Assembly (NCBI GenBank): GCA_946626905.1
Contig: CAMOVA010000001.1
Span: 1,677 to 65,676, forward strand
DNA length: 64,000 nt
Direction of reading: 5' to 3'
From: an uncultured Bacillota bacterium
GTDB lineage: Bacteria; Bacillota_I; Bacilli_A; RF39; UBA660
A program made the translations under genes and the position numbers. Shown piece after piece: positions 3,269 through 37,315 of this stretch (position 1 is its first letter; every line of letters begins with the position of its first letter). The notes under the pieces are model-generated. The model was not told the DNA's origin. It searched no databases and was given only the letters and a program-made list of their open reading frames with translations.

Positions 3269-3490
3269 TTAATTTGTATCAACAAGTATTACATCTTCAC
3301 CTATCTTTTTTATTTGATTCCATTTTATTTCTTCATCACTATTTCCTCTAAATAAATTAAACTTTGCCTTACCTATAATTAAAGCATTAATAGTTCCACT
3401 AGTATTTATTGAAATATCCACAATATTGCCTATTTTTTTACCATCTTTAATACTTACAATATCTTTATTTTGTAATTCTGATAAATACAT
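3269..3490 (-). CDS. ylmC: YlmC/YmxH-family PRC-barrel sporulation protein
   Basis: 73 aa MYLSELQNKDIVSIKDGKKIGNIVDISINTSG..., typical of YlmC/YmxH and immediately downstream of sigG as in Bacillus. Confidence 0.7.
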   Translation of the reverse strand: MYLSELQNKDIVSIKDGKKIGNIVDISINTSGTINALIIGKAKFNLFRGNSDEEIKWNQIKKIGEDVILVDTN

Positions 3491-5557: not shown

Positions 5558-6093
5558 TAATTCTCTTTTAATATTTCAAAATAACTTTGTGGGTGTGCAC
5601 AAACTGGACAAACTTCTGGAGCTTCACTTCCATAATGGATGTGTCCGCAATTACGACAAATCCACATTTTTTCTTCAGTTCTTTTAAATACTTTTCCTGA
5701 TTCAATGTTATCTAATATTTTTCTATATCTTTCTTCATGATGTTTTTCAATATTACCCACTGATTCAAATAGATAAGCGATATGATCAAAACCTTCTTCT
5801 TTAGCAGTTTCTGCGAATTCTTTATACATATCTGTCCATTCAAAATTTTCACCATTAGCTGCATCTTTTAAATTTTCTATTGTTGATGGAACACCGTCAT
5901 TGTGTAATAATTTAAACCACATTTTAGCATGTTCTTTTTCATTATTTGCTGTTTCTTCAAAAATAGCAGCCACTTGTTCATAACCTTCTTTTTTTGCTTT
6001 TGAAGCATAATAAGTATATTTATTTCTTGCTTGTGATTCACCTGCAAATGCTGCCATTAAATTTTGTTCTGTCTTACTTCCTTTTAATTCCAT
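5554..6093 (-). CDS. rbr: rubrerythrin
   Basis: 179 aa. Ferritin-like di-iron domain with E..H motifs, plus a C-terminal rubredoxin-like CRNCGH...CPVC. Confidence 0.85.
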
Positions 6094-6146
6094 ACTTTAC
6101 CTCTTTTCTTATTTCATTATAAATTAAATTTTTATGACAGTCAATA

Positions 6147-12679: not shown

Positions 12680-12943
12680 TTAATTATTTTTTATATATTT
12701 TTCTAACTCTTCTAATTTTTCTCCACGAAGTGGTCGACATTTTTTATAAGCTTCTAAATTTTTTAACATTTCTTTTGCCATACCAGCACATGATCCATAA
12801 CCACATGCTCCACAATTATAACCAGGCAATCTTTTTAAATATTCTTCTTCTTTTGGATTTGTTTTATTTATTTTATTATCAACAACTACTAATACTATTC
12901 CTAAAATAAGTGCGGTTAAAGTTATTATAAGTATTCCTATCAT
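12680..12943 (-). CDS. rnfB: minimal RnfB (membrane anchor plus first Cys cluster only, no ferredoxin domains)
   Basis: 87 aa: TM helix followed by LPGYNCGACGYGSCAGMAKE...C (C-x2-C-x4-C-x16-C), the RnfB N-terminal cluster. The protein ends there; the dagK-like gene follows after 37 nt. Confidence 0.6.
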   Translation of the reverse strand: MIGILIITLTALILGIVLVVVDNKINKTNPKEEEYLKRLPGYNCGACGYGSCAGMAKEMLKNLEAYKKCRPLRGEKLEELEKYIKNN

Positions 12944-13071
12944 TTTTTCATCTCCTTATATAAATTACATCCCATGCATTTATCACAATTATGGTCACAT
13001 TTATTTTTATTTGATAAATATAATGTTATAGCAAATAACACTATTATTAATAAAAATGGTACTATAATCAT
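12940..13071 (-). CDS. 43-aa micro-ORF: single TM plus a CxxxCxxCxxC tail, translationally coupled between rnfA and rnfB
   Basis: MIIVPFLLIIVLFAITLYLSNKNKCDHNCDKCMGCNLYKEMKK. Its ATG overlaps the rnfA stop (ATGA) and its TGA overlaps the rnfB ATG (ATGA). Resembles FeoB-associated Cys-rich membrane peptides. Confidence 0.4.
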   Translation of the reverse strand: MIIVPFLLIIVLFAITLYLSNKNKCDHNCDKCMGCNLYKEMKK

Positions 13072-13631
13072 AAATATCTTGCGAAAAGCAATGCCATAAT
13101 TGCAGCTGTAAGTAATGCTATTGGATGTCCTTTAAAAGATGCAGGTATATCATTTTTATCTATTTTTTCTCTCATACTAGAGAATAAATATATTACAAAT
13201 GTAAAACCTAAACTACTAGAAATACTATATACAAGCATTTCTACAAAACTATAGTTATTTGTTATATTAAGTAATACTATTCCAAGAACTGCACAATTAG
13301 TAGTTATAAGTGGTAAATAAAGCCCTAAAACTTGATGTATTTTATTTAAATATTTTTTTAATAATATTTCTAATAACTGAACAAGTGAAGCAATAACTAA
13401 AATAAATAATACTGTTTTTAAATATTCTGTTTCAGTTGGAACTAATAAATATTTATATAAACACCAAGTTATTATAGAAGATAATGTAACTACTAACATT
13501 ACTGATATACCCATATAAATTGCATTACTTCTTTTTTTAGATGTTCCAATGAATGGACATATACCTAAAAATTTTGTTAATACTACATTTTCAGTAAGTA
13601 AGGCTGTTAAGCATATATTAATTAGATTCAT
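13068..13631 (-). CDS. rnfA: Rnf complex subunit A
   Basis: 187 aa, 6-TM NqrDE/RnfAE family (GICPF..., LGLYLPLITTNCAVLG). Confidence 0.85.
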   Translation of the reverse strand: MNLINICLTALLTENVVLTKFLGICPFIGTSKKRSNAIYMGISVMLVVTLSSIITWCLYKYLLVPTETEYLKTVLFILVIASLVQLLEILLKKYLNKIHQVLGLYLPLITTNCAVLGIVLLNITNNYSFVEMLVYSISSSLGFTFVIYLFSSMREKIDKNDIPASFKGHPIALLTAAIMALLFARYL

Positions 13632-14256
13632 TCTTATTACCTCCTCTTATATAGTTAAACAAAGCAAGTAAGCATGCTAATGTTATAAAAGCTCCTGCTG
13701 GTTTATTAAATATGTTTATAGGAAATAAATCTGAATGAAAATTAATTTTAAGAATTATTTCATGATGTGTAATATTACTTATTTCTTTCATTATAGTTAT
13801 TGTTTCATTACCTAATACTTCTCTTATTAACCCTAATACCATAAGAACAACTGTATAACCAAGTCCTACTCCTAAACCATCTAATACACTATTTTTAACA
13901 TTTTCTTTAGATGCAACAGATAAAGCTCTACCTAAAACAATACAATTTACTACTATAAGTGGTAAATATATTCCTAATACTTTATATAAAGGATTAACAT
14001 ATTCTTTTAATAAAATTTCTAGTACAGTTACTAATGTTGAAATAATAAGAATATATACTGGTATTTCTACATTTTTTGTTACATATTTACTTATTAATGA
14101 AACTATTAAATTAGAACAAATTAATACAATTGTTACACAAATTCCCATAATGTAGGAATTTTCAAAATTATTAGTTATAGCAAGTGCTGAACATAAACCT
14201 AATAATAATACTAAAACAGGATTTTCATTTACTATTCCATTTATTATTCTTTTCAT
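13618..14256 (-). CDS. rnfE: Rnf complex subunit E
   Basis: 212 aa NqrDE/RnfAE family (LGLCSALA, LGIYLPLIVVNCIVLGRA). Confidence 0.85.
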   Translation of the reverse strand: MKRIINGIVNENPVLVLLLGLCSALAITNNFENSYIMGICVTIVLICSNLIVSLISKYVTKNVEIPVYILIISTLVTVLEILLKEYVNPLYKVLGIYLPLIVVNCIVLGRALSVASKENVKNSVLDGLGVGLGYTVVLMVLGLIREVLGNETITIMKEISNITHHEIILKINFHSDLFPINIFNKPAGAFITLACLLALFNYIRGGNKNESN

Positions 14257-14356
14257 TTTAACCTCCTATTTAACTAAATTAGTAACAACGTATAATATTG
14301 TTCCACAAATTAATGCTGTTAATGTTAAAACAATAATACCTTGATATTTTTTCATA

Positions 14357-15775
14357 TTATTTCTCCATATCTTTCTTTACATTAATACACATTTTCTTTA
14401 AAGCTGTTGATGATATAGTAGCACCTGAAACAGTATCTACTTTATCTAAATTATTTTGATTATCTATTAATGTTTTAATATAATTTTTATTTGTAACCAA
14501 TTTATAATAATTTTCTGTTTCATTATTTTCTATTATTTTTATTTTTGTTATTTCATTATCTTTAATATATATTTTTGCTTTAATAGGTCCTCCATTACCA
14601 ACTTGTGAAACCACATAATAATTATCTTTCTTTTCTATTATTTTAAATTTTGAATCACTAGAATCACTATTAATATATTTATTTCCAACTAATAAACTAA
14701 CACCTAATAATAAACATGTTATTATTCCCATAGGAATTAATATTTGCATTATTGATTCTTTCTTTTTAGATCCTAATCTATCTAATAAGACAACAAACAT
14801 ATTCATTGTTAAAATCGATGTTAATACTCCTTCAGGAGCACTTGTATAATTTCTAAATAAAACAGTAAGTATACCTAAACAAAATGCATATATTACTTGT
14901 CCCAAACAAGTCGTTGGACTTGTAACAGGATCTGTAGCCATAAATACTGCTCCAAATAATAATCCTCCACTTAATATATTAAATGTTGGATACCATATTC
15001 CTTCTCCATTCATAGAGCCTATTATTAAAGTCATTACGAATACTGTTGATACATATATTAAAGGAATTTTCCATTTGATAACTTTCTTTAATACCAAATA
15101 TATATAAGCAACAATTATAAGAATTGAACAAGTTTCACCTACTGTTCCAGGAATCATTCCAAATAAGAAATCTTTTAAATCACCATATGGTTTTACTACT
15201 TTGTCATAATTACCTATTCCATCAATCATGTGATAATTAGTAAGTGGTGTCGCACTTCCTATTGTATCTAATTCATATTTATTTATATATCCACCATTAC
15301 TATTAATAACTGAGCCATAACAAGTAAGTACAAAAAGACAACCTATAAGTGCTGGATTAAAAATATTTTGCCCAAATCCACCATATAACATTTTCCCTAC
15401 AATAATTGCTACTACTGCACCTATTATTAATATAGGTAATGGTGTATTAAGAGGTAATACTAAAGATACAAATAGTCCTGGTAAAAAACTATATGAGTTT
15501 TTTATACTGTTAATTAAATCTTTATTTTTCTTTTTTAATACTAGATATGTATATATTGTTTCAGTAATAAAACTAGTAAATGTTCCTACAAAAACAAATA
15601 TAAGTGGATAAAACATTCCATATGTATCAGTTAAATTATGTTTGTATAATACTACACCATTTTTATAAAATGAAAATAAAATGATTGGTAGTAAAGCTAC
15701 TACTAAATGAAGCATAATCTTATTAGTTTTATTAGGGCTTTTTATGTATGGCCCTTTATAAGTATTAAATTCCAT
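14357..15775 (-). CDS. rnfD: RnfD-RnfG fusion protein
   Basis: 472 aa. N-terminal roughly 350 aa is RnfD/NqrB-like, including the flavinylation motif GSATPL. C-terminal roughly 110 aa is an FMN-binding RnfG/NqrC-like domain with SGATISS. Confidence 0.75.
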   Translation of the reverse strand: MEFNTYKGPYIKSPNKTNKIMLHLVVALLPIILFSFYKNGVVLYKHNLTDTYGMFYPLIFVFVGTFTSFITETIYTYLVLKKKNKDLINSIKNSYSFLPGLFVSLVLPLNTPLPILIIGAVVAIIVGKMLYGGFGQNIFNPALIGCLFVLTCYGSVINSNGGYINKYELDTIGSATPLTNYHMIDGIGNYDKVVKPYGDLKDFLFGMIPGTVGETCSILIIVAYIYLVLKKVIKWKIPLIYVSTVFVMTLIIGSMNGEGIWYPTFNILSGGLLFGAVFMATDPVTSPTTCLGQVIYAFCLGILTVLFRNYTSAPEGVLTSILTMNMFVVLLDRLGSKKKESIMQILIPMGIITCLLLGVSLLVGNKYINSDSSDSKFKIIEKKDNYYVVSQVGNGGPIKAKIYIKDNEITKIKIIENNETENYYKLVTNKNYIKTLIDNQNNLDKVDTVSGATISSTALKKMCINVKKDMEK

Positions 15776-16986
15776 TATTTCACCTTACCTTTTGCTTCCT
15801 TTAAATATTCACGCAAATTTATTCTAGCAGGACATATGAAAGAACATATTCCACATTCTATACATCTTGAAACATCTAATCTTTTTAATTCCTCTTTATC
15901 ATTTATATTATCTTTTACTAATACTGGGCATATTTTTGCTGGACAATGATCACTACATTTTCCACATCTAATACAAGTAGTTGCAATATCTTCTTTTGCT
16001 TTTTTTAATGCCAAAACGGCATTAACACTTGGATCTAATACAAATGATTCTTTTGATAAAGAATATCCCATCATAGGACCACCTGATATTAATGTAACAT
16101 CATCATTTTTATACCCTTTATAAATATCTTTCAATTCTTCAAATAATGTTCCTATTTTTATTTTAACGTTTATTTTTTTCTTAAATGATTCTCCACTAAT
16201 AGTTATTACTCTTTCAATTAGTGGTTTACCTTCTAATGCTTCAGATATTGAATAAATTGTTGAAGCATTTGAAACAACTATATTTTTTTCAGTTGGTAAT
16301 TTTTCATAATCTGTATGTTTTATATATCTAACAAGTGATTTTTCCCATCCCATTGGATATAAATTTGGCACTTGTACTACTGAAATAAAATCATAAGAAT
16401 TAATTGCTGGTATAATTTTTTCAAGTAAATTTCTATTACCAATTTTAATAGCAATAATTATCTCTTCTATAGAAAATATTTCTTTTATTTGCTCTAGTGC
16501 CTTTACAATTTTATTTATATATTTAAAACATACAACATTATCAGCTGTTATATATGGTTCACATTCAACAGCATTTACTATTAATGTTTTGATTTCATTA
16601 TCATATTTTATATATGAAGGAAATCCATTACCACTTAATCCTATAATTCCTTTTTCTTTTAACAATTCTATAAAATCTTCTTTTGTTTTAACAATAGGCT
16701 TTTTAAAACTATGATTTTCTTTAAAATCATTTTCTATTTCTAAAAATTTACATACATTATTTTTTGAATCCAATAGCTCTACTATTTTAGTTACTTTACC
16801 ACTAACACTACTATTAATAAAATAATTTCTCTCAATTATTTTATCTCCCATTTTAACTTTATCATTTTCTTTAACAAGTAATTTATCTTTTTCATCTATT
16901 TTAAAATATACATATTTAGGATTCAAAAATTCTTTTAATTTATATTTTGTATCTTTTTTATTTGCTTTTAATCTAATGCCTATCAT
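15775..16986 (-). CDS. rnfC: Rnf complex subunit C
   Basis: 403 aa. NADH/FMN-binding fold plus two C-terminal 4Fe-4S motifs, CIRCGKCSDHCP and CIECGICSFICP. Confidence 0.85.
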   Translation of the reverse strand: MIGIRLKANKKDTKYKLKEFLNPKYVYFKIDEKDKLLVKENDKVKMGDKIIERNYFINSSVSGKVTKIVELLDSKNNVCKFLEIENDFKENHSFKKPIVKTKEDFIELLKEKGIIGLSGNGFPSYIKYDNEIKTLIVNAVECEPYITADNVVCFKYINKIVKALEQIKEIFSIEEIIIAIKIGNRNLLEKIIPAINSYDFISVVQVPNLYPMGWEKSLVRYIKHTDYEKLPTEKNIVVSNASTIYSISEALEGKPLIERVITISGESFKKKINVKIKIGTLFEELKDIYKGYKNDDVTLISGGPMMGYSLSKESFVLDPSVNAVLALKKAKEDIATTCIRCGKCSDHCPAKICPVLVKDNINDKEELKRLDVSRCIECGICSFICPARINLREYLKEAKGKVK

Positions 16987-24866: not shown

Positions 24867-25277
24867 TTATTTAGGTTTTTTAGTTCCATATTTTGAACGT
24901 CCTTGACGTCTTTTATCAATTCCTGCTGTATCTAATGTTCCACGTACAATGTGATATCTAACTCCGATTAAGTCTTTAACACGACCTCCACGAATTAATA
25001 CAACACTATGTTCTTGTAAGTTATGTCCTTCACCACCAATATAAGCAGTTACTTCCATACCATTACTTAAACGTACACGAGCATATTTTCTTAATGCTGA
25101 GTTTGGTTTCTTAGGTGTCATAGTACCTACACGAGTACAAACTCCACGTTTTTGTGGTGAGTTTTGATTAGTAGTCTTTTTAGTTCTACTATTGTATCCA
25201 ACTCTAAGTACTGGTGCTTTTGGTTTTCTAGTTTTCTTTGATCTACCATTTCTAACTAATTGATTAATTGTTGACAT
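24867..25277 (-). CDS. rpsL: 30S ribosomal protein S12
   Basis: [24 protein letters not shown]... Confidence 0.95.
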
Positions 25278-25422
25278 AATTGCCTCCTCTCATTCCACAC
25301 TTCCAGGTGTTTCTTTTTATGCCTTAATTTTAAGATTTGCCTCAACAAACCTTTAAATACATGCGTAATTAATATACCATTTTATTATATTAAAGTCAAT
25401 ATATTTTATGCTGGTTTACATA

Positions 25423-25450
25423 AAAAAAGCAGATTTTTTTCTGCTTTTTT
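25423..25450. terminator. bidirectional intrinsic terminator ending the ncRNA-oapA-like-518aa unit
   Basis: AAAAAAAGCAGA-TTTTTTT-TCTGCTTTTTT. Confidence 0.55.
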
Positions 25451-25451
25451 A

Positions 25452-27008
25452 CTATCTTACTGTTTGAAGACTTCTCATTAATTTTTGAAATCCTAAACTA
25501 TTATTTAATCTATTTTGAATTTGAGTCTTCTCTGCTTCAGTAATATTTTCATATTTTACTGAATTTGTAAAACTTGGCATATCAATTTTATCAACATATT
25601 TAGTAGATATTTTGTCAGTTAAATTAACTTTAACTAATCCCATAACGCTTCCTGTTACTACAATTGTTCCGTTATCTTTATCTCCATCATATGATATTGT
25701 TCCATCCATTACAGTTGTACCATTTGATAAAACTTTATATGAATATGTTGTTTTACTTCCTTTTGTGTTTTTAACTACTTCTATAGCTGCAACTGATTTA
25801 TCACCAGATTTCATATCAATAGTTAATTTATCATCTTTCTTTAGCGCAACTAATTCTGAACCACTTCCTACAATGTTAAATTGTTTTGTATCTCCATTTT
25901 CATAATAAGTTGCTTTTGTTTTGCTTGTACTTGTTTCTAAACTAAATCCTACAAAACTATTTGTTAATCCTTTTACATAACAACTTAATGAAATAGATTC
26001 TTTTGAATCAGCTGACTTCATATCTTCTTTAATTTTTTTAACAGCTTCTTTTAAACTTTTTTTGATTTCTGATTCTTTAGTATCAGCTATTTTTGCGATT
26101 ATCTTAACAAATTTACTATCATTTTCTAAATCTTCAACCATTTTATAAGATAACTCATCAATAGTTTTTTGTGTAAATTTATATGTTATTTTTGTTGTTT
26201 TTACTTTTTTACCATCAATAACAACTGTTTCTTTTGATTTTTTAAAATCTTTACTATTTAAATTTTTATTAAATGAGTTTTTAACAGTTCTTAAAATATA
26301 TTTAACATCATCTTTAGAAATATTAATATCTGTTCCTTCAGTTTTAACCATATCAGTTATATCAATATATTTATCATATAACCCTTTTAATTCAACATAA
26401 TATTTTCCATCGTTTAAATATGTTCCAACATTTATTAAATCTGAATTGTCATATAATGCATTTATAATCATTTTTAAATTATTGTTTTTTGCATCTACTC
26501 CAACTTCACTTTTGATTTCTAATTTATTTAATTCATCAAGCATTGCTTTTGTACTAGCATCTTTAACAATTGTTGGATCTGCAGTTATTTTTAATTTAAC
26601 ATCTTGTTTTACTATAGCTGTTTTTCCAACTTTTTTAGTATCCCAATTATCATCAATCCATTTTTCTAACTTATCATATTTTTTATCAATTGATTTAGTA
26701 AAAACAGATTTAGCATTGAACATTTTAGTGTATGCTACAAAAGCTCCTAAAACAACCAATATAACAGCACAAATTGTAGCTATTATTGGAGTTTTACTTT
26801 TTTTATTATCTCCATCATTATTATATGTAGGTGCTGGTTTTACAGCCTCTTCAATTGGTCCATTTTCTTCTAATGAAGAAACTGGTGCTTCTACTTCTAC
26901 AGCTGCAGGTTCTACCTCATTTTGAATTGTATCATCTATTGAAGGTAAACTTTCTGGCGTAGTAGTTTCTTGAACATTTTGTTCTAATTCTTTATTCTCT
27001 TCCATCAT
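25452..27008 (-). CDS. hypothetical membrane-anchored protein (acidic N-terminus, one TM, large extracytoplasmic domain)
   Basis: 518 aa. TM IIATICAVILVVLGAFVAY near residue 75. No recognisable catalytic motifs. Co-directional with, and 50 nt downstream of, the OapA-like gene. Confidence 0.5.
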   Translation of the reverse strand: MMEENKELEQNVQETTTPESLPSIDDTIQNEVEPAAVEVEAPVSSLEENGPIEEAVKPAPTYNNDGDNKKSKTPIIATICAVILVVLGAFVAYTKMFNAKSVFTKSIDKKYDKLEKWIDDNWDTKKVGKTAIVKQDVKLKITADPTIVKDASTKAMLDELNKLEIKSEVGVDAKNNNLKMIINALYDNSDLINVGTYLNDGKYYVELKGLYDKYIDITDMVKTEGTDINISKDDVKYILRTVKNSFNKNLNSKDFKKSKETVVIDGKKVKTTKITYKFTQKTIDELSYKMVEDLENDSKFVKIIAKIADTKESEIKKSLKEAVKKIKEDMKSADSKESISLSCYVKGLTNSFVGFSLETSTSKTKATYYENGDTKQFNIVGSGSELVALKKDDKLTIDMKSGDKSVAAIEVVKNTKGSKTTYSYKVLSNGTTVMDGTISYDGDKDNGTIVVTGSVMGLVKVNLTDKISTKYVDKIDMPSFTNSVKYENITEAEKTQIQNRLNNSLGFQKLMRSLQTVR

Positions 27009-27058
27009 ATCACTCCCATATTATAACTATAACATTATATTCATTTTTAGTCAATAAA

Positions 27059-27658
27059 TTATTTTTTTGGTTTGTAAACCAAATATATTATTTTTGTAGC
27101 TTCATATAAAATGGTATTTGCATTATTAATTGCATAGCTTTTACATAAAGCTTTTAACCCTATTATAATTGATGCTATTAAAGAAGTTATCAACAATGAT
27201 GTCATATATAAATTTAAGTCAAATGTACTTGAAAGTCCTGCTGATATTGTTACCCCTACTGTACCTGATACAACACCACAAATATCTCCTATTACATCAT
27301 TGCAAAATGAAGCAGTCTTATCAGCATTTTGTTTTAATTTTATTGCAAGTTTTGCTTCTTTTATTTTTCTTGCTGCCATTGAATTAAACGGAGTAATATC
27401 TGCTGCTGTAACAGCTACCCCAATCATATCAAATAAAACACCTATCACCACAAAAAAAACTAATATTAATAATTCTACCCATAGTGAAACATGTGGAATA
27501 GTTGATTCTGAAAAAGTAGCAAATAAAAAAGAAACTATAAAAGCTATTATTACTATTTTTAATATCCATACTTTATCAACATGTTCTTTATGTTTAGCAT
27601 TTTTTCTCTTAGTTTGTATTTTTAAATTTTTTAGTTCACTTGTTTTTTGTTTTTTCAT
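27059..27658 (-). CDS. small 4-TM membrane protein, OapA-like (OLE-associated protein A candidate); internal two-fold repeat with DMIG/DVIGD (DxxxD) motifs
   Basis: 199 aa, basic N-terminus, 4 predicted TM helices. Motifs LFDMIGVAVTAAD and NDVIGDICG. Directly downstream of the large structured RNA. Confidence 0.45.
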   Translation of the reverse strand: MKKQKTSELKNLKIQTKRKNAKHKEHVDKVWILKIVIIAFIVSFLFATFSESTIPHVSLWVELLILVFFVVIGVLFDMIGVAVTAADITPFNSMAARKIKEAKLAIKLKQNADKTASFCNDVIGDICGVVSGTVGVTISAGLSSTFDLNLYMTSLLITSLIASIIIGLKALCKSYAINNANTILYEATKIIYLVYKPKK

Positions 27659-27671
27659 CTTACCACCATAA

Positions 27672-28250
27672 TTATATGTGATGGCAAAAATATGGTTAAC
27701 TTTACGTCTTAGGTCAAGTAGAATTTCTCTAGTCTCTACAGTATGTTACCACGCTGCGGTTCCCCTTTAAAGAGACTAATATATTGTCACCAAATATATG
27801 ACTTGATTGCCACTTAGTACGTACTGCAATCCCATATTTTCACTCTAGAAGTTTTCCTCAACATTTTGTTTATTATTAATTCTCTTTTGCAAATATAATT
27901 TCATGAAGCAATAATCAATACCTTTTGGCCAAAAGATATTAATCTGTCATCAATTCCATATACTCACTCAAGACAAGCTACGCTACTCGTAAGTTTCCCC
28001 ACATAGTAGGTTCAAGCCTAAGTCGTCATAAGTCCGTCAACATACGTGTATAGGCTTATAACAAGTTTAGGTCTCCACGAAAGCTGGGTCAGAAATCGTA
28101 TGCCATTACGGTTGCCCAACAATCTAACCTTTCAGCACCCACCCAAATCTGGGCGAAATAAGCAAGCACCAAAAGTTTCACAGATATGCTCTTTAGTGGA
28201 TTTTTAGCCCCACCTTCATAATAAACTTAATGACTAGAATAGTGTGCCAT
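27672..28250 (-). ncRNA. large (about 580 nt) structured non-coding RNA, OLE-like candidate; unclassified
   Basis: No ORF of 60 aa or more in any frame. GC content visibly higher than the flanks. Many perfect hairpins: CUUUUGGCCAAAAG, CCCAGAUUUGGG, AAGCCUA...UAGGCUU, AGUCUCU...AGAGACU. Own promoter at 28258-28286. 3'-terminal hairpin CCAUCAC-auauaauuau-GUGGUGG contains the SD of the downstream gene. Confidence 0.5.
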
Positions 28251-28257
28251 CAAATAA

Positions 28258-28286
28258 ATTATATCAAAATAATTCTTCTAAGACAA
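28258..28286 (-). promoter_or_regulatory. sigmaA promoter of the large ncRNA, TTGTCT-17-TGaTATAAT (extended -10)
   Basis: Read on the minus strand directly downstream of the rpoC terminator. Confidence 0.5.
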
Positions 28287-28313
28287 CAAAAAATGGACTA
28301 TTTAATTAGTCCA
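28284..28313 (-). terminator. rho-independent terminator of rpoC
   Basis: Minus-strand RNA AUGGACUA-AUUAAA-UAGUCCAU followed by UUUUUUGUUG. The stem overlaps the rpoC stop codon. Confidence 0.6.
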
Positions 28314-31300
28314 TTAATTGATTTTCTAAAAGTTGTAATGGTTCTTCATCTACAGCATTTTCTAATTTATAATCTGAAGCTTGATATCTCTTTGCACCTG
28401 TTCCGGCAGGTATTAATTTACCAATAATTACATTTTCTTTAAGACCGTTTAAATGATCTACTCTACCATGTATAGCAGCATCTGTTAAAATTCTTGTTGT
28501 TTCTTGGAATGATGCAGCTGATAAGAATGAATCTGTTTCAAGTGAAGCTTTAGTAATACCTAACAATACTGGTCTACCAGTTGCTGGTGTTTTACCTTCT
28601 AATATTAATGCAGTATTTTTGCTTGTAAATTCATTAATATTAACCATTGTTCCAGGTAAGAAGTAAGAATCACCTGAGTTTACAATCTTAATTTTTGAAA
28701 TCATTCTTTTTGCCATTACTTCAATATGCTTATCTGAAATATCAACACCTTGTGAACGATAAACTTTTTGAATTTCCATAACTATATATTGTTGTACTGT
28801 TATAGGGTCTGTAACTACTAATAATTCTTTTGGACTAATAGCACCATGAGTTAAACGTTGACCTGCTTTAACTTCATCACCCTTAGCAACAGCTAATTTT
28901 GCACCATAGTTAGATGTATGTTCTCTAACTTGAGCATCATTTTTAACAGAAATAATATATTTACCGTTTGATTCTTCGATTTCTGTAACTGTACCATTAA
29001 TTTCAGAAATAGTTGCTTTACCTTTTGGATTACGAGCTTCGAACAACTCTTGAACACGAGGTAAACCTTGTGTAATATCGTCTCCGGCAACACCACCTGA
29101 GTTGATAGTACGCATTGTAAGTTGGGTACCTGGTTCACCAATTGATTGAGCAGCCATAATACCAACAGCTTCTCCTATTTCAACAACATGACCAGTAGCT
29201 AAGTTACGACCATAACAATGTTTACATACTCCATTTTCACTCTTACATGTTAGTAATGTTCTAATAGATACTTTTGTAACACCAGCTTTAATTATTTTAT
29301 CAGCTAATTGTTCTGTAATATAAACATTTTTATCTACAATCATTTCTTTAGTTTCTGGGTCTAATACTTTTTTATTTGTATATCTTCCTAAGATTCTTTC
29401 ACGTAATGGTTCAATTATAGTTCCATCAGTATTGTATAGTGTTTCTACAACTACACCTGAATCTGTACCACAATCTTCTTCTTTTACGATTATATCTTGT
29501 GCTACATCAACTAATCTTCTTGTTAAGTAACCAGCATCTGCTGTTTTTAACGCTGTATCAACAAATCCTTTTCTGATACCATGTGTACCTGTAAAGAATT
29601 CTGAAACGCTTGCACCATCAATAAATGATGATTTGATTGGAATTTCATCTGGTTCACCTGTTGGTTTAGCCATAAGTCCACGCATACCAGCCATTTGGTT
29701 ATAGTTACTTAAGTTACCACGAGCTCCTGAATCTATCATAATAGAAATAGGATTTTCTTTATGTTCTTTTATAATTGTAGCAAGTTCATCTGCTATTGTA
29801 GATGTTGCTCCATTCCATGTTTCAATTACTTTTTCATATCTTTCACGATCAGTAATTAAACCACGTTTAAATTGTTTATTAATTTGAGCAATAGTTTCAC
29901 TTGCTTGTTTTAATACTTCTGGTTTTTTCTTAGAAGCAATGATATCACCTATACCTATTGAAATACCAGATAATGTTGATTCTTTGAAACCTAAATCTTT
30001 CATCTTATCAAGCATTATAGATGTTTCAGTTGTTTGATATCTTTTATATACTTGAGCAATTAATTTTGTTAGAACTTTTTTACCAAATGGTTTTACAAGT
30101 TCCATGTTTTCAATTGCTTCTTTTATATTTGTTCCTTTTTTAAGGAAATATTTATTTGGAGTTATTCCTTCTATATTTTCATCTGTTCCTTCATTTATAT
30201 ATTGGAATGAATCTGGGAATATCTCATTAAATTTAATTTTACCTGGTGTTGTTACTAAATATTTTTCTTTTTGAGAATCTGTAAATAAAGTATGTTTAAA
30301 TCCACTTGCTGGAATAGCAATTCTTGTATGTAAAGAGATTTCTCTTCTTTCATAAGCCATTAAAGCCTCATCTGGATTTCTAAATACTCTACCTTCTCCT
30401 ACTTCACCAGCTTTTTCTATAGTAATATAGTAGTTACCTAAGATCATATCTTGACCTGGAGTAACGATTGGATTACCATCTGATGGTTTCAAGATGTTAT
30501 TAGCACCTAACATTAATACTCTTGCTTCTGCTTGTGCTTCAACACTTATAGGTACGTGAACGGCCATTTGGTCTCCATCAAAGTCAGCGTTAAATGCTGT
30601 ACAAACAAGTGGATGAAGTCTTATTGAACGTCCTTCGATTAGTTTTGGTTCAAATGCTTGAATACCAAGTCTATGAAGAGTTGGTGCACGGTTAAGCATT
30701 ACTGGATGTTCTTTTATTTTTTCTTCTACAACATCCCATACTCTTTCATCTTGATTTTCAATCATTCTTTTTGCAGCTTTAATATTTGAAGCTATTCCTT
30801 TTGTAACTAATCCATTTATAACATGTGGTTTGAATAATTCTAAAGCCATTTCTTTAGGTATACCACATTCATACATCTTAAGTGATGGTCCAACTACGAT
30901 AACTGAACGACCTGAATAGTCAACACGTTTACCAAGTAAGTTTTGACGGAAACGTCCTTGTTTTCCTTTTAACATACTTGAAAGTGATTTAAGTGGTCTG
31001 TTTCCAGCTCCTGTAACATTACGACCTCTTCTACCATTATCGAATAAAGCATCTACTGCTTCTTGAAGCATACGCTTTTCGTTTTGGATGATAATAGAAG
31101 GAGCTCCTAATTCTAATAATTTCTTTAAACGATTATTTCTATTAATAATACGTCTATATAAATCATTTAAATCTGAAGTAGCAAATCTACCACCATCTAA
31201 TTGAATCATTGGTCTTAAATCAGGTGGAATTACTGGAAGAACATCCATAATCATCCATTCTGGTTTATTTCCTGATTCTAAGAATGCATCTAATACATCT

Positions 31301-31935
31301 AATCTTTTAATTAAACGTATTCTTTTTTGATTTGACGAATCTTTGATTTCATCAATTTCTTTTTGTAGTTTTTCTACTTCGTCTTTAATATTAACTTCTT
31401 TAAGTAAAGTTTGGATAGCTTCAGCACCCATTCCTACTTTAAAAGTATCACCATATTTTTCATAATATGCACGATATTCTTTATCTGAAATTGTTTGTTT
31501 TTTCTCTAAAGGTGCAGGTCCTGGATCTAAAACAACATATGATACGAAATATAATACTTCTTCTAGATCTCTTGGTGACATATCAAGTACTAATCCCATA
31601 CGTGATGGTACACCTTTAAAGAACCAAATGTGTGAGACAGGAGTTGCTAATTCAATATGTCCCATACGTTCACGACGTACTTTAGAACGAGTTACTTCAA
31701 CTCCACATCTATCACATACAACATTTTTATATCTTAATCTTTTATATTTTCCACAAGAACATTCATAGTCTTTTGTAGGACCAAAGATTTTTTCGCAATA
31801 TAAACCGTCTCTTTCAGGTTTTAAAGTACGATAATTAATTGTTTCTGCTTTTTTAACTTCTCCATAAGACCAATCTCTTATTTTTTCTGGTGAAGCTATT
31901 CCAATTCTTAAACCTTCAAAACTGTTTGCATCCAT
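28306..31935 (-). CDS. rpoC: DNA-directed RNA polymerase subunit beta'
   Basis: 1209 aa. NADFDGD motif, zinc-binding Cys clusters. Confidence 0.97.
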
Positions 31936-34900
31936 TAATCTTCAACCCCTTTCATAACTGATTCAAGATCCTCTAAAGTTGGTTCCATATCATCTAGATT
32001 TTCTTCAACTTCTTCAGGTTCTTCTTCCTCTAGTTCTTCTTGTGGTTCTGATTCTTCTTCAGTAGGAACTTGATAATCTACTGATTCTAAGAAATCATTT
32101 TCTTCTTCCCCTTCAAGTTCTTTTAAATCTACAAAATTTCCTTCTTTATTTAGAACTGTAATATCAAGTCCTAAAGCTTGGAATTCTTTTATTAATACAC
32201 GGAAACTTTCTGGTACTCCTGATGGTGGAAGTGGTGTTCCTTTAACAAGTGATTCATACACTTTAACACGACCAACTACATCGTCTGATTTAACTGTCAT
32301 CATTTCTTGAAGAACATGTGCAGCACCATATGCATATAATGCCCAAACTTCCATTTCTCCAAATCTTTGTCCACCAAATTGAGCTTTACCACCAAGTGGT
32401 TGTTGTGTAACAAGTGAGTAAGGTCCTGTTGATCTTGCATGTAACTTATCATCAACCATATGGTTAAGTTTTATAAAGTACATAACACCAACACTTACTT
32501 TATTATCAAATGGTTCACCTGTACGTCCATCATATAATTGGAATTTTCCATCTTCTGGTAATTTAGCTTCTTTTAAAGCTTCAATTACTTCGTCACGAGT
32601 TGCTCCATCAAATACTGGAGTTGCTACATAAACACCTAATTCACGAGCTGCCATTCCTAAATGCATTTCTAGAATTTGTCCAATGTTCATACGTGATGGA
32701 ACTCCTAGTGGGTTAAGTAAAATATCTACTGGTGTACCATCTTCTAAGTATGGCATATCTTCTTCTGGTAATACAAGTGAGACAACACCTTTGTTACCAT
32801 GACGTCCTGCCATTTTATCTCCAACGCTTATTTTACGTTTTTGTGCTATATAAACTCTAATTATTTTAGAAACACCAGCTGGTAGTTCATCTGAATCCTC
32901 TTTTGTAAAGATTTTTACATCATGAACAATACCTCCACCACCGTGTGGAACACGAAGTGATGTATCTCTAACTTCACGAGTTTTTTCTCCAAATATAGCA
33001 TGTAATAATTTTTCTTCTGAAGTAAGTTCAGCCATTCCTTTTGGAGTAACTTTACCTACTAAGATATCATCATCTTTAACTTCTGTACCTATTCTGATAA
33101 TACCATTTTCATCTAAGTTTTTACGTGCTTCTTCACCAACATTAGGAATATCTCTTGTGAATTCTTCTGGTCCTAATTTAGTGTCACGACATTCAATTTC
33201 ATAATCTTCGATATGAATAGATGTAAATGTATCATCTTTAACTAATCTTTCGTTTAAAACGATAGCGTCTTCATAGTTATATCCATTAAAGTTCATAAAT
33301 GCTACTGTAACATTTCTACCTAAAGCCATTTCTCCTTTATTAGTAGAAGGTCCATCAGCAATTACTTCATCTTTTTTAACTTTATCTCCTAATTTAACAA
33401 TAGGAACTTGATGATAACAAGTACCAGCATTACTTCTTTCAAATCCATTTAAGTAATATGTATCCATTCCTTTTGCTGTCTTAACAATAATCTTGTTAGC
33501 ATCTACATAATCAACAACACCATCAGCTTTACTGATAATAACAGCTCCTGAATCTTTAGCAGCTATTGCTTCAATTCCAGTACCAACTATTGGTGCTTCT
33601 GTTTTAATTAATGGTATAGCTTGACGTTGCATGTTGGCACCCATAAGTGCACGTTTACCATCATCATGATCCAAGAATGGGATACCTTGAGTAGCTATTG
33701 ATACTACTTGTTGAGGTGAAACGTCTGCATAATCTATCTTATCTGAATCAATCATAATATTGTCAGAACGATATCTAACAGGTACTCTTTCATCTAAAAT
33801 CTTACCATTTTCATCTACATTTAATGAAGCTTGTGAAATATAGTAATCTAATTCTTCATCTGCAGTCATATATACTACTTCATCTGTTAACACACCATCT
33901 TTTACTTTTCTATATGGTGTCATAATAAATCCATAATCATTTACTCTAGCATATGATGCTAAAGAAGTAATAAGTCCAATGTTAGGCCCTTCTGGTGATT
34001 CAACTGGACATAATCTACCATAATGTGATGGATTAACGTCACGAACGTCCATACCAGCTCTATCTCTTGAAAGACCTCCAGGTCCTAATGAAGATAATCT
34101 TCTTTTGTTTGTAAGTTCTGCAACTGGGTTAATTTGATCCATGAATTGTGATAATTGACTTGAACCAAAGAACTCTTTGATTGATGCAGTAAGTGGTCTA
34201 ATATTTATTAAAGATTTTGGAGTAACTTCAGTTATTTCTTGAGTACTCATTCTATCTCTAATTACTCTATCAATACGACTTATACCTATTTTGAATTGAT
34301 TTTGAAGTAATTCACCAACTTGTCTAACACGTCTGTTTGATAAGTGATCTATTTCATCAAATTTTCCAATTCCTTCTAATAAGTTTAAGTAATATGATGT
34401 TGCACCATAAATATCTGGTATAGTAAGTCTCTTAACATCTATTGATTGATCATTACCAATAACATTAACTACTTTATCAGGATTTACTTTTGAATAAACT
34501 TTAACCATTTGAACTTTATCATAAGTATCTAAATCTTTATTTATTAAAACTTCTTTTAATCCATATCCATTAGCTAAAATTGGTTTTAATTTTTCGATTG
34601 TTTCTTTATCAATTACTGTTCCTGCTTCAATTACAGTTTTTCCATCTTTGATAGTTTCAGCTAAAGTACATCCAAGTAATCTGTCTGTTAAGTTTAATTT
34701 TTTATTAAATTTATAACGACCTACACGTGCTAGATCATATCTAAATGAATCAAAGAATCTAGTAATCAATTGATTCTTAGCACTATCTAATGTAGATGGT
34801 TCACCTGGTCTTAATTTAGCATGAATATCTATTAATGATTCATCTGTATTTTTATTAGAATCTTTAGCAATTGTATTTTCTAAGTATTCACTCTTACCAA

Positions 34901-35531
34901 ATAAATCTAAAATATCCTCATCACTAGATAAACCTACAGCACGTAATAATGTTGTTAATGGAACTTTTCTTGTTCTATCAATTCTAACATAAATTACATT
35001 TCTAGCATCTACTTCATATTCTAACCAAGTACCTCTATTTGGTATCATTTGTGAAGTTATTACTAGTCTTCCATTTTTGTCTACTTCTTTTCCAAAATAG
35101 ATTGATGGTGATCTAACAAGTTGAGATACGATAACTCTTTCTGCACCATTAATAACGAAAGTTCCGCTTTCGGTCATAACAGGCATATCTCCAAGATAAA
35201 TTTCTTGTTCTTTTACTTCTCCTGTTTCATGATTAAAAAGTCTTGCTTCAACTTTTAAAGGCGCTGCATAAGTTGAATATCTTTCTTTACAACCTTTTAT
35301 TGAGTATCTAGGTTGTTCAAATGAATAGTCACCAAATTCCAAGGATAACTTTCCTTGGAAGTCTTCTATAGGGAATATTTCATCAAATACCTCTTTTATT
35401 CCTTCAGTTATAAACCAATCATATGATTTTTTTTGAATTTCTAATAAGTTAGAAAGTTCAATAGCATTCTTTGTTTTTCCATAATTTCTTCTCTTACGAT
35501 GGTCACCAAATTTTTTAACTTTATATGCCAC
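31935..35531 (-). CDS. rpoB: DNA-directed RNA polymerase subunit beta
   Basis: 1198 aa, conserved throughout, with an acidic C-terminal tail. Confidence 0.97.
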
Positions 35532-35616: not shown

Positions 35617-36210
35617 TTAAGATTTGTCAATGGGTTTTGCCTTTATTATATAAAACCCTTTGTTTTTTTTCACTGTTTCTAAAACATAATGGTCGCTTAG
35701 TCTCTTTATAACAGTTTTTGCTCCTTGATTTTTATTAATAACAAACCATAATTCTCCATCTTTTTTCAAATGTTCTTTAGCACCAATTAATATCTCATAA
35801 AGTATTTCATTTCCAACTCTAATTGGTGGATTTGTTATTATAAAATCATACTTTTTACTAACATTACTATATATATTGCTTTCAAAAGCATTTACTTCTA
35901 CTTTGTTGAGTTTAGAATTTTTTGTTACCAAATCCAAAGCTCGTAAGTTAATATCAATCATGTCAGGCACTATATTTTTAACTTTTGCTATAAAAATACC
36001 AATAGCACCATATCCACAACCAAAATCTAAAACATCACCTTTTATATTATCTAAGTCTATATTTTCAAGTAATGAACGTGTTCCAAAATCCAATCCTTTT
36101 TTTGAAAAAACACCATTATCTGTTATAAACTCAAATTTGTGATTTCTAATTATACAACTAGTATTTTTTTCATTACTAACAATATTTTCATTTGTAAAAT
36201 AATGTGCCAT
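35617..36210 (-). CDS. ybxB: class I SAM-dependent methyltransferase, YbxB/RsmC-like
   Basis: VLDFGCGYG SAM motif, TNPP catalytic motif. Same rplL-ybxB-rpoB position as in Bacillus. Confidence 0.8.
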   Translation of the reverse strand: MAHYFTNENIVSNEKNTSCIIRNHKFEFITDNGVFSKKGLDFGTRSLLENIDLDNIKGDVLDFGCGYGAIGIFIAKVKNIVPDMIDINLRALDLVTKNSKLNKVEVNAFESNIYSNVSKKYDFIITNPPIRVGNEILYEILIGAKEHLKKDGELWFVINKNQGAKTVIKRLSDHYVLETVKKNKGFYIIKAKPIDKS

Positions 36211-37155: not shown

Positions 37156-37315
37156 TACTACACCTCCATCCATATAAAGTACCATATAAAAGCCTTACAT
37201 ACAGTAAGGCCAAAGAATCTAAAAAAGTTCCTCGGTAGGATATTAAGATTTCTCCCCTACTGTCTACGGTACATATAAATTTTCAAACGACAAATTGATT
37301 ATATCATAAACATAA
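37156..37315 (-). promoter_or_regulatory. rplJ leader, probable L10 autoregulatory leader element
   Basis: 160-nt untranslated gap between rplA and rplJ with GC-rich pairing segments (GUAGACAGUAGGGGAGAAAUC...CCUACCGAGGAAC). Confidence 0.4.

What the first reader, a model, noticed from the sequence alone, without database searches (positions are those of the whole stretch)
25423..28313. Large structured ncRNA plus 4-TM DxxxD protein plus membrane-anchored protein inserted between rpoC and rpsL: an OLE/OapA-like unit, or a novel analogue
In Firmicutes rpoC is normally followed almost directly by (ybxF-)rpsL-rpsG-fusA-tuf. Here rpoC is followed by its own terminator, then a consensus sigmaA promoter, a ~580-nt ORF-free block, a 199-aa protein and a 518-aa protein. 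A terminator closes the unit before rpsL.

- The 580-nt block (27672-28250) is GC-enriched relative to the flanks and dense in perfect hairpins.
- The 199-aa protein has 4 TMs, an internal two-fold repeat, and conserved DMIG / DVIGD (DxxxD) acidic motifs inside membrane helices.
- The 518-aa protein is membrane-anchored with a large extracytoplasmic domain.

This matches the ole-oapA arrangement of OLE RNA: a ~600-nt ornate RNA immediately upstream of a small 4-TM protein with a DxxxD motif, found in anaerobic and extremophilic Firmicutes. The genomic position is unlike the ispA-ole-oapA-dxs context I recall for Bacillus halodurans. I could not confirm OLE primary-sequence signatures by eye, so this may be a new large-RNA class with its own membrane partner.
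Basis: partly seen in the sequence, partly recalled or inferred. Interest (0 to 1): 0.85.

Follow-up and report, generated by a model that had tools for sequence, protein, structure and literature searches.

The report
OLE RNA operon beside rpoC
The ORF-free block is a full-length OLE RNA followed by its known membrane partner OapA, so this is a known system; what is new is its position between rpoC and rpsL and a third, uncharacterised membrane-protein gene that travels with it in related gut bacteria.

Summary
Between rpoC and rpsL lies a separate minus-strand unit: terminator, sigma-A promoter, about 600 nt of non-coding sequence, a 199-aa gene, a 518-aa gene and a terminator.

- **RNA.** The block is OLE RNA. 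Rfam RF01071 scores 402.9 bits against a threshold of 50, covering model positions 1-616. No other family matches.
- **Structure.** Across 27 homologues, 101 of 160 predicted base pairs show compensatory changes.
- **199-aa protein.** This is OapA. It has four transmembrane helices and an invariant DxxxD motif. Its best structural match is the CorB/CNNM membrane domain. An OLE gene sits directly upstream of about 75 of its 80 homologues examined.

The "novel RNA class" alternative is therefore rejected.

- **Position.** The rpoC-ole-oapA-P518-rpsL layout recurs in a clade of uncultured gut Bacilli.
- **518-aa protein (P518).** It is a single-pass membrane protein with a beta-rich outer domain and matches no known family. 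Close relatives sit next to ole/oapA in at least four different genomic contexts, once in the order ole-P518-oapA. More distant relatives are not linked to OLE.

P518 is a candidate lineage-specific OLE partner, supported by gene neighbourhood only. Overall this is a new member of a known kind, of moderate interest.

The parts
28292..28315 (-). Intrinsic terminator of rpoC; it overlaps the rpoC stop codon
   Evidence: Stem of 9 pairs, loop of 6, then TTTTTTG. Folds at -13.2 kcal/mol, z = -6.2. The same hairpin is present in the related species L087.
28258..28286 (-). Dedicated sigma-A-type promoter for ole (TTGTCT-17-TATAAT with TG extended -10); predicted start near 28251
   Evidence: Scores 10 of 12 consensus positions plus the TG. 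A TTGACx-17-TAxAxT promoter with TG lies at the same distance before the conserved GAUGGCACAUUAUUCUAGUCA block in 5 species, in three genomic contexts (alignment A3). H. halodurans ole also has its own proximal promoter (PMC3413148).
27665..28266 (-). OLE RNA gene, full-length type. The Rfam match includes about 15 nt of promoter at its 5' end.
   Evidence: RF01071 at 402.9 bits (threshold 50), E = 7e-115, model 1-616, not truncated. Across 27 homologues, 160 consensus pairs were predicted and 101 show compensatory changes.
27059..27658 (-). oapA (199 aa): OLE-associated membrane protein A, a CNNM-like four-helix membrane domain with a DxxxD motif
27026..27054 (-). Possible internal promoter (TTGACT-17-TATAGT with TG) in the oapA-P518 spacer
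   Evidence: Found by the consensus scan. The 50-nt spacer is nearly identical in L087 although the flanking proteins are only 60% and 37% identical. There is no terminator-like fold here. Inference only.
25452..27008 (-). P518: single-pass membrane protein with an acidic disordered N-terminus, a transmembrane helix at residues 73-96 and a beta-rich C-terminal domain. Candidate lineage-specific OLE-module gene.
   Evidence: No Pfam or NCBIfam family. AlphaFold pLDDT 75, with most of the domain in the 80s to low 90s. Only generic beta-sheet fold matches. Homologues sit next to ole/oapA in L008, L010, L011, L024, L087, L090, L095-L097, L104, L105 and L106.
25420..25450 (-). Intrinsic terminator closing the unit
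   Evidence: AAAAAGCAGA-loop-UCUGCUUUUU followed by a U-run; -13.4 kcal/mol, z = -5.6. An equivalent terminator follows the P518 homologue in L087.
25371..25399 (-). rpsL promoter (TTGACT-17-TATATT with TG). It marks the boundary and is not part of the OLE unit.
   Evidence: Found by the consensus scan. The sequence is nearly identical in L087.

Best explanation
This is a genuine ole-oapA locus, the gene for OLE RNA followed by the gene for its membrane partner OapA.

**Transcription (inferred from sequence).** The unit forms its own transcription unit in the gap between rpoC and rpsL. Transcription starts at a strong extended -10 sigma-A promoter about 7 nt before the first conserved OLE block. 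It runs through the ~600-nt RNA into oapA with no terminator between them, continues into the 518-aa gene, which may also have its own promoter, and stops at an intrinsic terminator before the rpsL promoter.

**Function (transferred from experiments in Halalkalibacterium halodurans).** The RNA folds into the ornate OLE structure. It is bound by a dimer of OapA, a four-helix membrane protein related to the CNNM/CorB Mg2+-transporter domain, and is held at the cell membrane as part of a ribonucleoprotein. That complex helps cells cope with alcohol, cold, excess Mg2+ and poor carbon sources.

**The third gene (synteny only).** P518 is a single-pass membrane protein with a large beta-rich domain predicted to lie outside the cell. 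It is most likely a lineage-specific accessory of this membrane complex. I put the probability of that at about 0.35.

Shown here: family membership of the RNA and of OapA, covariation, transcription signals at consensus level, and gene neighbourhood. Inferred: expression, RNA processing, complex formation and physiological role.
For: **RNA**
- RF01071 hit of 402.9 bits against a threshold of 50, full model, no competing family.
- 101 of 160 consensus pairs show compensatory changes across 27 homologues.

**OapA**
- Invariant DxxxD motif and four long membrane helices.
- Sub-threshold PF01595 similarity, as published for OapA.
- 11 Lys/Arg in the first 30 residues and 7 in the loop between helices 2 and 3. 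This fits the published cytoplasmic basic cluster (PMC12265935).
- OLE lies directly upstream, on the same strand, of about 75 of 80 OapA homologues. These include Clostridium oceanicum in the canonical ole-oapA-dxs context.

**Transcription unit**
- Promoter and both terminators. The promoter is conserved in 5 species.
- An own promoter for ole is known from H. halodurans (PMC3413148).

**P518 linkage**
- The arrangement rpoC-OLE-oapA-P518-rpsL occurs in L087, L095, L096 and L097; L090 shows its oapA-P518-rpsL part.
- The three-gene block also occurs after rnfD and before cotE (L008, L010, L104), between rarA and holA (L011, L024) and before fhs (L106).
- L105 has the order OLE-P518-oapA.
- 8 of the 9 members of P518's 35-member subclade whose context I could see are adjacent to ole/oapA.
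Against: - No expression, processing or binding data exist for this uncultured organism.
- oapB and oapC were not found among the free-standing small ORFs of the 64-kb window. The rest of the genome is not available.

Against P518 as a partner:
- Only 4 of the 80 OapA-centred genome loci carry a P518 homologue.
- The wider P518 family is large, with 1,123 cluster representatives at E <= 1e-10. Its distant members lie elsewhere, next to cotE or near a PBP5-type penicillin-binding-protein gene and proS.
- In L008 and L010 a terminator-like hairpin and a separate promoter lie between oapA and the P518 homologue, so the genes are not always one operon.
- The model's fold gives no functional clue.
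Confidence: 0.93

Rival explanations
1. The ole-oapA assignment is right, but the 518-aa gene is only a neighbour. On this view it is an envelope or sporulation-related membrane protein that sits beside oapA through inherited gene order, with no functional tie to the OLE complex.
For: - The P518 family is large and mostly not linked to OLE.
- Members repeatedly sit beside cotE, both with OLE (L008, L010, L104) and without it (L091, L092).
- 76 of 80 OapA loci lack a P518 homologue.
- A terminator-like hairpin and separate promoter precede the gene in L008 and L010.
Against: - The adjacency survives at least four changes of flanking genes and one change of internal order, OLE-P518-oapA in L105.
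- 8 of 9 sampled subclade members are linked.
- A second, very divergent lineage (L011, L024) is also adjacent to oapA.
- Linked loci form three separate clades in the OapA tree.
Confidence: 0.55
2. The 600-nt block acts mainly in cis, as a long structured 5' leader of the oapA-P518 mRNA, rather than as a stable stand-alone RNA.
For: - The window has no terminator between OLE and oapA.
- The last OLE nucleotides (GCCA) can pair either with the 5' UGGC to form helix P1 or with the oapA ribosome-binding site GGUGG.
Against: - The alternative hairpin is weak (-10.9 kcal/mol, z = -2.0).
- In L008, L010 and L024 a hairpin plus T-run separates OLE from oapA, implying a discrete RNA.
- H. halodurans OLE is a discrete, very stable and abundant RNA with a processed 3' end (PMC3413148; PMC11332333).
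- About 600 nt of near-invariant sequence with heavy covariation is far more than a leader needs.
Confidence: 0.05
3. The block is a new large-RNA class, a degenerate group II intron or a frameshifted pseudogene, not OLE.
For: None found.
Against: - Full-length RF01071 match at 403 bits and no other Rfam family at E <= 1.
- No ORF of 50 aa or more on its strand.
- Conserved with covariation in 27 genomes.
Confidence: 0.01

Closest known systems
OLE RNA (Rfam RF01071), studied mainly in Halalkalibacterium (Bacillus) halodurans
   Same: - About 600 nt, with the same conserved blocks and helices; the full covariance model is matched.
- Own proximal promoter (PMC3413148).
- oapA lies immediately downstream.
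- The host belongs to Bacillota.
   Different: - The neighbours are rpoC and rpsL, not ispA and dxs.
- GC is low (0.36).
- The host is an uncultured, apparently gut-associated Bacilli lineage, not an extremophile.
- A third conserved gene follows oapA.
- There is no terminator between ole and oapA in this species.
OapA (BH2780), OLE-associated protein A
   Same: - Four transmembrane helices and the DxxxD motif.
- Basic cytoplasmic segments.
- Weak CNNM similarity and a CorB-like fold.
- Encoded directly after ole.
   Different: The closest cultured homologue retrieved, from Clostridium oceanicum, is 44% identical.
CNNM/CorB/CorC/MpfA Mg2+ transporters (PF01595 membrane domain)
   Different: - The protein has no CBS pair and no CorC/HlyC domain.
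- It has four rather than three membrane helices.
- It carries a DxxxD motif that CNNM domains lack (PMC11332333).
- The Pfam score is below threshold (19.8 against 28.4 bits).
- It is therefore not a member of that family.
Variant OLE RNAs of the TANB77 and RF39 gut clades (Fernando and Breaker 2024)
   Same: The hosts are uncultured gut Bacillota with small, AT-rich genomes.
   Different: - The published variants shorten or lack helices P7-P9.
- The window's RNA matches the whole model and keeps both GNRA-capped hairpins of the 3' domain.
- One relative in my set, L078, does lack this region.
ybxF (rplGB), whose H. halodurans orthologue is OapC, the kink-turn-binding OLE partner
   Same: From my own knowledge of the Bacillus subtilis gene order, ybxF occupies the same rpoC-rpsL gap that ole-oapA-P518 occupies here. 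I could not confirm this with the literature tools.
   Different: No L7Ae-type gene lies in this gap in the window. The overlap in position may be coincidence.

Membership tests
OLE RNA (RF01071) | Covariance-model score above the curated gathering threshold, covering the whole model | tested here: met
   402.9 bits against 50; model 1-616 of 616; not truncated; E = 7e-115.
OLE RNA (RF01071) | Ornate secondary structure supported by covariation in related genomes | tested here: met
   RNAalifold on 27 homologues predicted 160 pairs; 101 have at least one double compensatory change; covariation term -26.8 kcal/mol.
OLE RNA (RF01071) | oapA is the immediate downstream neighbour | tested here: met
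   oapA starts 7 nt after the Rfam match. The same holds in about 75 of 80 homologous loci.
OLE RNA (RF01071) | Full-length type (P7-P9 and the P13 hairpin present) rather than variant 1 or 2 | tested here: met
   All helices of the model's structure line are aligned; the only gap is a 15-nt unpaired insert. Both GGUGAC and GGUAAC GNRA-type loops are present. The kink-turn and OapA palindromes were not mapped individually.
OLE RNA (RF01071) | Host in Bacillota, typically anaerobic or extremophilic | tested here: inconclusive
The nearest relatives are MAGs labelled Bacilli, Tenericutes or Mollicutes. An EF-Tu cluster-mate is labelled 'Bacilli bacterium'.
OLE RNA (RF01071) | Abundant, stable, membrane-localised transcript | not testable with these tools
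   Needs RNA-seq, a Northern blot and cell fractionation.
OapA | Four predicted transmembrane helices | tested here: met
   AlphaFold helices 29-56, 59-85, 112-146 and 150-178; pLDDT 83.7.
OapA | Conserved DxxxD motif in a membrane helix | tested here: met
   D121-V-I-G-D125 is invariant in 26 sequences. The motif is cited as distinctive for OapA in PMC11332333.
OapA | Distant CNNM-domain similarity; predicted fold best matches CorB (7M1U) | tested here: met
OapA | Sequence homology to the characterised H. halodurans protein BH2780 | not tested
Indirect support: 44% identity to the protein encoded in the canonical ole-oapA-dxs locus of Clostridium oceanicum.
OapA | Binds OLE RNA (2 proteins per RNA) and localises it to the membrane | not testable with these tools
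   Biochemical assay needed.
MpfA/CorB/CorC Mg2+ transporters | CNNM domain followed by a CBS pair and a CorC/HlyC domain | tested here: not met
   The protein has 199 aa and only the membrane domain. No CBS or CorC hit; CNNM is below threshold.
OapB (KOW small beta-barrel) and OapC (YbxF, L7Ae-like) | A gene for either protein present near the locus | tested here: inconclusive
   The free-standing ORFs of 70-130 aa in the window match PRC-barrel, FeS, Smr and HTH families. None is KOW or L7Ae. The PRC-barrel ORF does not match OapB in the PDB. Only 64 kb of the genome is available.
Any curated protein family, for the 518-aa protein | Score above threshold in Pfam or NCBIfam, or a specific structural match | tested here: not met

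The most novel reading that the evidence does not exclude
The 518-aa protein and its subclade are a previously unrecognised, lineage-specific component of the OLE ribonucleoprotein, an "OapD"-type partner. Its transmembrane helix would contact OapA, and its large outward-facing domain would act on the outer side of the membrane. That would fit the 2025 proposal that OLE RNA spans the membrane. It would also give the first OLE-linked protein with an extracytoplasmic domain.
Probability: 0.3. Interest if true: 0.65.

Novelty: new member of a known kind. Interest (0 to 1): 0.4.

Why it matters
OLE RNA is one of the largest conserved bacterial RNAs whose biochemical function is still unknown. Its researchers state that they are looking for further protein partners, a possible "OapD" (PMC11332333).

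The RNA and OapA here add nothing new in kind. Two things may be useful:

- **A compact unit.** This clade has a self-contained ole-oapA unit with clear promoter and terminators, set among core transcription and translation genes.
- **A candidate partner.** An uncharacterised single-pass membrane-protein gene stays next to ole/oapA through several genome rearrangements. Earlier phylogenetic profiling was anchored on H. halodurans proteins and reported no extra partners from its reference-free run. A partner found only in this clade could therefore have been missed.

If the link is real, it offers a testable handle on what the complex does at or beyond the membrane.

Tried and rejected
- **Internal two-fold repeat in OapA.** hhalign of its two halves gave E = 0.32, so this is rejected.
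- **Solved structures.** A PDB sequence search with OapA found nothing.
- **RNA binding by P518.** Its outer domain has pI 9.2, against a window median of 8.8. This is not distinctive, so no charge-based argument can be made.
- **More distant P518 homologues after oapA.** A broader HMM built from 154 family members found no further cases in the 80 OapA loci.
- **P518-centred metagenome scan.** It returned only 7 loci: one identical to the window's species, three in the rpoC/rpsL arrangement and three distant and unlinked.
- **OapB or OapC in the window.** None found among the small ORFs.
- **cotE in the window.** Absent.
- **Literature on ybxF between rpoC and rpsL.** No paper found or held. 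That point rests on my own knowledge.
- **Older OLE papers.** Those from 2006 and 2019 are not held. The 2023 review listing ole's commonest gene neighbours has no PMC id in the reference list and did not appear in the searches.
- **oapA without ole.** L007, L044 and L065 carry oapA homologues with no OLE in the fetched flank. I treated these as exceptions and did not explain them.
Full report
**1. What is in the sequence**

All genes from 20 to 36 kb are on the minus strand, in this order:

| Feature | Coordinates |
|---|---|
| rpoB | 31935-35531 |
| rpoC | 28306-31935 |
| ORF-free gap | about 600 nt |
| 199-aa ORF | 27059-27658 |
| 518-aa ORF | 25452-27008 |
| rpsL | 24867-25277 |
| rpsG, fusA, tuf | downstream |

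- rpoC ends in a 9-bp hairpin followed by a T-run at 28315-28292. It folds at -13.2 kcal/mol with z = -6.2.
- Next comes a promoter-like site, TTGTCT-17-TATAAT with a TG extended -10, at 28286-28258.
- After the 518-aa ORF there is a second hairpin and U-run at about 25450-25420 (-13.4 kcal/mol, z = -5.6).
- Then comes the rpsL promoter, TTGACT-17-TATATT, at 25399-25371.
- The gap has GC of 0.36-0.41, against 0.19-0.32 in the two ORFs after it.

**2. The RNA**

A scan of the whole window against Rfam finds OLE (RF01071) at 27665-28266 on the minus strand. The score is 402.9 bits against a gathering score of 50. The match covers model positions 1-616 and is not truncated.

A permissive scan of 27400-28500 at E <= 1 finds nothing else. 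That rules out ROOL, GOLLD, raiA, HEARO and group II introns. All helices in the model's structure line are aligned. The only notable gap is a 15-nt unpaired insert. Both GNRA-type hairpin loops of the 3' domain are present. This is therefore the full-length form, not the shortened variants reported for the TANB77 and RF39 gut clades (PMC11332333).

I aligned the window's RNA with 26 homologues taken from other genomes. RNAalifold predicted 160 consensus pairs, and 101 of them carry at least one double compensatory change. The structure is therefore conserved and co-varying.

**3. The 199-aa protein**

- **Curated families.** Pfam and NCBIfam give no hit above threshold. The best is the CNNM membrane domain PF01595, at E = 6.8e-4 and 19.8 bits against a 28.4-bit cut-off. 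This weak similarity is exactly what is published for OapA (PMC11332333).
- **Homologues.** The large protein collection holds 1,651 homologues. In an alignment of 26, the motif C-N-D121-V-I-G-D125-I-C-G is invariant, as is F-D77-M. DxxxD is cited as the distinctive OapA motif, and CNNM domains lack it.
- **Charge.** The N-terminal 30 residues hold 11 Lys/Arg and the loop between helices 2 and 3 holds 7. This agrees with the described cytoplasmic basic cluster (PMC12265935).
- **Neighbourhood.** I scanned one genome per species with the OapA alignment and kept the 80 best loci. nhmmer with the window's RNA finds OLE directly upstream, on the same strand, in about 75 of them. Clostridium oceanicum (L076) and L081 have a dxs-like gene after oapA, the canonical context.
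- **Not supported.** The claimed internal repeat gave E = 0.32 in hhalign.

I conclude that this protein is OapA. One gap remains: I could not align it directly with the H. halodurans protein.

**4. The transcription unit**

I aligned the region upstream of OLE from five species that represent three genomic contexts. In each, a TTGxxx-17-TAxAxT promoter with TG lies at a fixed short distance before the conserved GAUGGCACAUUAUUCUAGUCA block. This matches the experimentally shown proximal promoter of H. halodurans ole (PMC3413148).

In the window and in L087 there is no terminator between OLE and oapA. In L008, L010 and L024 a hairpin plus T-run lies there. How the RNA is separated from the mRNA probably differs between species.

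The 50-nt spacer between oapA and the 518-aa gene holds a second promoter-like site. The spacer is almost identical in L087, although the flanking proteins are only 60% and 37% identical.

**5. Genomic position**

The same species appears on six other contigs with the identical layout. A related species has RpoC 91% and OapA 60% identical to the window's. It shows rpoB-rpoC-OLE-oapA-(483-aa homologue)-rpsL-rpsG-fusA-tuf (L087). L095, L096 and L097 repeat that arrangement. A more distant genome, with RpsL 78% identical, has oapA-homologue-rpsL (L090).

In the OapA tree these loci form one clade. The insertion into the rpoC-rpsL gap is therefore a conserved trait of a lineage and not an assembly artefact.

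From my own knowledge, Bacillus subtilis has ybxF in this gap. Its H. halodurans orthologue is the OLE partner OapC (PMC9723947). I could not confirm the gene order with the literature tools and treat the overlap in position as a curiosity.

**6. The 518-aa protein (P518)**

*What it looks like*
- It matches no curated family.
- The AlphaFold model (pLDDT 75) shows a disordered acidic N-terminus, one transmembrane helix at residues 73-96, a helical hairpin and a long beta-rich domain. pLDDT over that domain is mostly in the 80s to low 90s.

*How large the family is*
- A profile search of 1.84 billion cluster representatives finds 1,732 relatives at E <= 1e-3 and 1,123 at E <= 1e-10.
- Ten distant members also have no Pfam family.

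*Where its relatives sit*

| Context | Loci |
|---|---|
| rpoC ... rpsL (L090 shows only oapA-P518-rpsL) | window, L087, L090, L095-L097 |
| after rnfD, before cotE (L104 lacks the upstream flank) | L008, L010, L104 |
| between rarA and holA | L011, L024 |
| before fhs | L106 |
| order OLE-P518-oapA | L105 |

*Evidence for a link to OLE*
- In a tree of 158 family members, all linked genes except the L011/L024 type fall in one 35-member subclade.
- I could see the context of 9 members of that subclade, and 8 are adjacent to ole/oapA.
- The L011/L024 type is a separate, very divergent lineage that is also adjacent to oapA.

*Evidence against a link*
- Only 4 of the 80 OapA-centred loci have a P518 homologue.
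- Distant family members lie next to cotE or elsewhere with no OLE nearby.
- L008 and L010 have a terminator-like hairpin and a separate promoter before the gene.

I conclude that the adjacency is more persistent than plain inherited gene order. It still amounts only to gene-neighbourhood evidence for a functional tie. I put the probability that P518 is a real, lineage-specific partner of the complex at about 0.3-0.35.

**7. How it most likely works**

*Shown here*
- The RNA and OapA belong to their families.
- The unit has its own consensus promoter and terminators.
- The three genes stay together across genomes.

*Taken from H. halodurans work*
- OLE RNA is abundant and stable. An OapA dimer binds it and holds it at the membrane.
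- Loss of the complex sensitises cells to alcohols, cold, Mg2+ above 2 mM and poor carbon sources (PMC3413148, PMC11332333, PMC12265935).

*Inferred*
- The same holds in this organism.
- P518, with its N-terminus inside and its large domain outside, would act at the outer face of the membrane.

**8. Novelty and score**

OLE is a curated family, with 2,822 hits reported across Bacillota genomes. This locus is a new member of a known kind.

I did not find the position between rpoC and rpsL, or the linked P518 gene, described in the papers I could search. The field states that it is still looking for further partners.

Interest is 0.4. The main claim resolves to a known system, with one modest lead worth following.

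Noticed in passing
L105 1-2531: The gene order is OLE (3' part, cut by the contig end), then the P518 homologue (468 aa), then oapA (197 aa, DxxxD intact). Here the third gene lies between ole and oapA.
   Followed up: yes
L007, L044, L065 (oapA at 6001-6594, 5516-6061 and 4930-5514): These loci have oapA homologues 50-52% identical to the window's, but no OLE at Rfam gathering score in about 5-6 kb of upstream flank. In L065, oapA lies about 900 nt before rpsL-rpsG-fusA, separated by a NUDIX/NrtR-like gene, and there is no rpoC upstream.
   Followed up: partly
window 27650-27700 (-): The 3'-terminal GCCA of OLE pairs with the 5' UGGC to form helix P1. It can alternatively pair with the oapA ribosome-binding site GGUGG (-10.9 kcal/mol, z = -2.0). 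OLE folding might therefore be coupled to oapA translation. The effect is weak and the idea is speculative.
   Followed up: partly
L008 about 5960-6000, L010 about 3970-4010, L024 about 4470-4500: A short hairpin followed by a T-run lies between OLE and oapA in these species but not in the window or L087. The way OLE's 3' end is formed seems to differ between relatives.
   Followed up: no
L008 9282-9845, L010 6337-6885, L012 7358-7897 (-), L091, L092, L104: Genes for CotE-like proteins (PF10628, E about 1e-51) repeatedly sit next to P518-family genes, both with and without OLE nearby. This hints at a link to sporulation or the cell envelope. No cotE is present in the window.
   Followed up: partly
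L011 6670-7380 and 7341-8177: The P518 homologue is split into two overlapping ORFs. This is either a frameshift or pseudogene, or an assembly error in the MAG.
   Followed up: no
L078 5383-5915: This OLE homologue lacks about 70 alignment columns (about 233-325 of alignment A4) that all 26 other sequences have. It resembles the published variant that lacks P7-P8.
   Followed up: no
L007, L028, L047, L058, L062, L064, L079; also L009, L013, L014, L022, L034, L043, L045, L063, L085: In many other gut Bacilli the gene after oapA is either a prepilin-type protein (N-terminal GFTLIELLGV) or a protein of about 225 aa. L065 has a 206-aa kinase-like ORF (Pkinase/APH Pfam hits) immediately upstream of oapA. 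These are recurrent neighbours that I did not find described for OLE.
   Followed up: no
window 37176-37287 (-): Rfam ribosomal protein L10 leader (RF00557, 67.5 bits) lies upstream of rplJ-rplL, as expected.
   Followed up: no
window 35617-36210 (-): A 197-aa methyltransferase gene (MTS/PrmA-type Pfam hits on the identical contig) lies between rplL and rpoB. It is conserved in the related species L087.
   Followed up: no
window about 12680-16986 (-): An Rnf-type electron-transport cluster (rnfC, rnfD/G, rnfE, rnfA, rnfB-like) lies about 10 kb from the OLE unit. In L008 and L010, OLE sits directly after rnfD.
   Followed up: no
window 3269-3490 (-): A 73-aa PRC-barrel protein (PF05239, E = 1e-10). 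It is not OapB: its only PDB sequence match, at E <= 1, is MTH1895 (E = 0.018).
   Followed up: yes
L093 2518-4668 (-) and 6001-7983 (+): Two P518-family paralogues lie in one locus, near a PBP5-type carboxypeptidase gene and with no OLE. The wider family therefore has OLE-independent roles.
   Followed up: no
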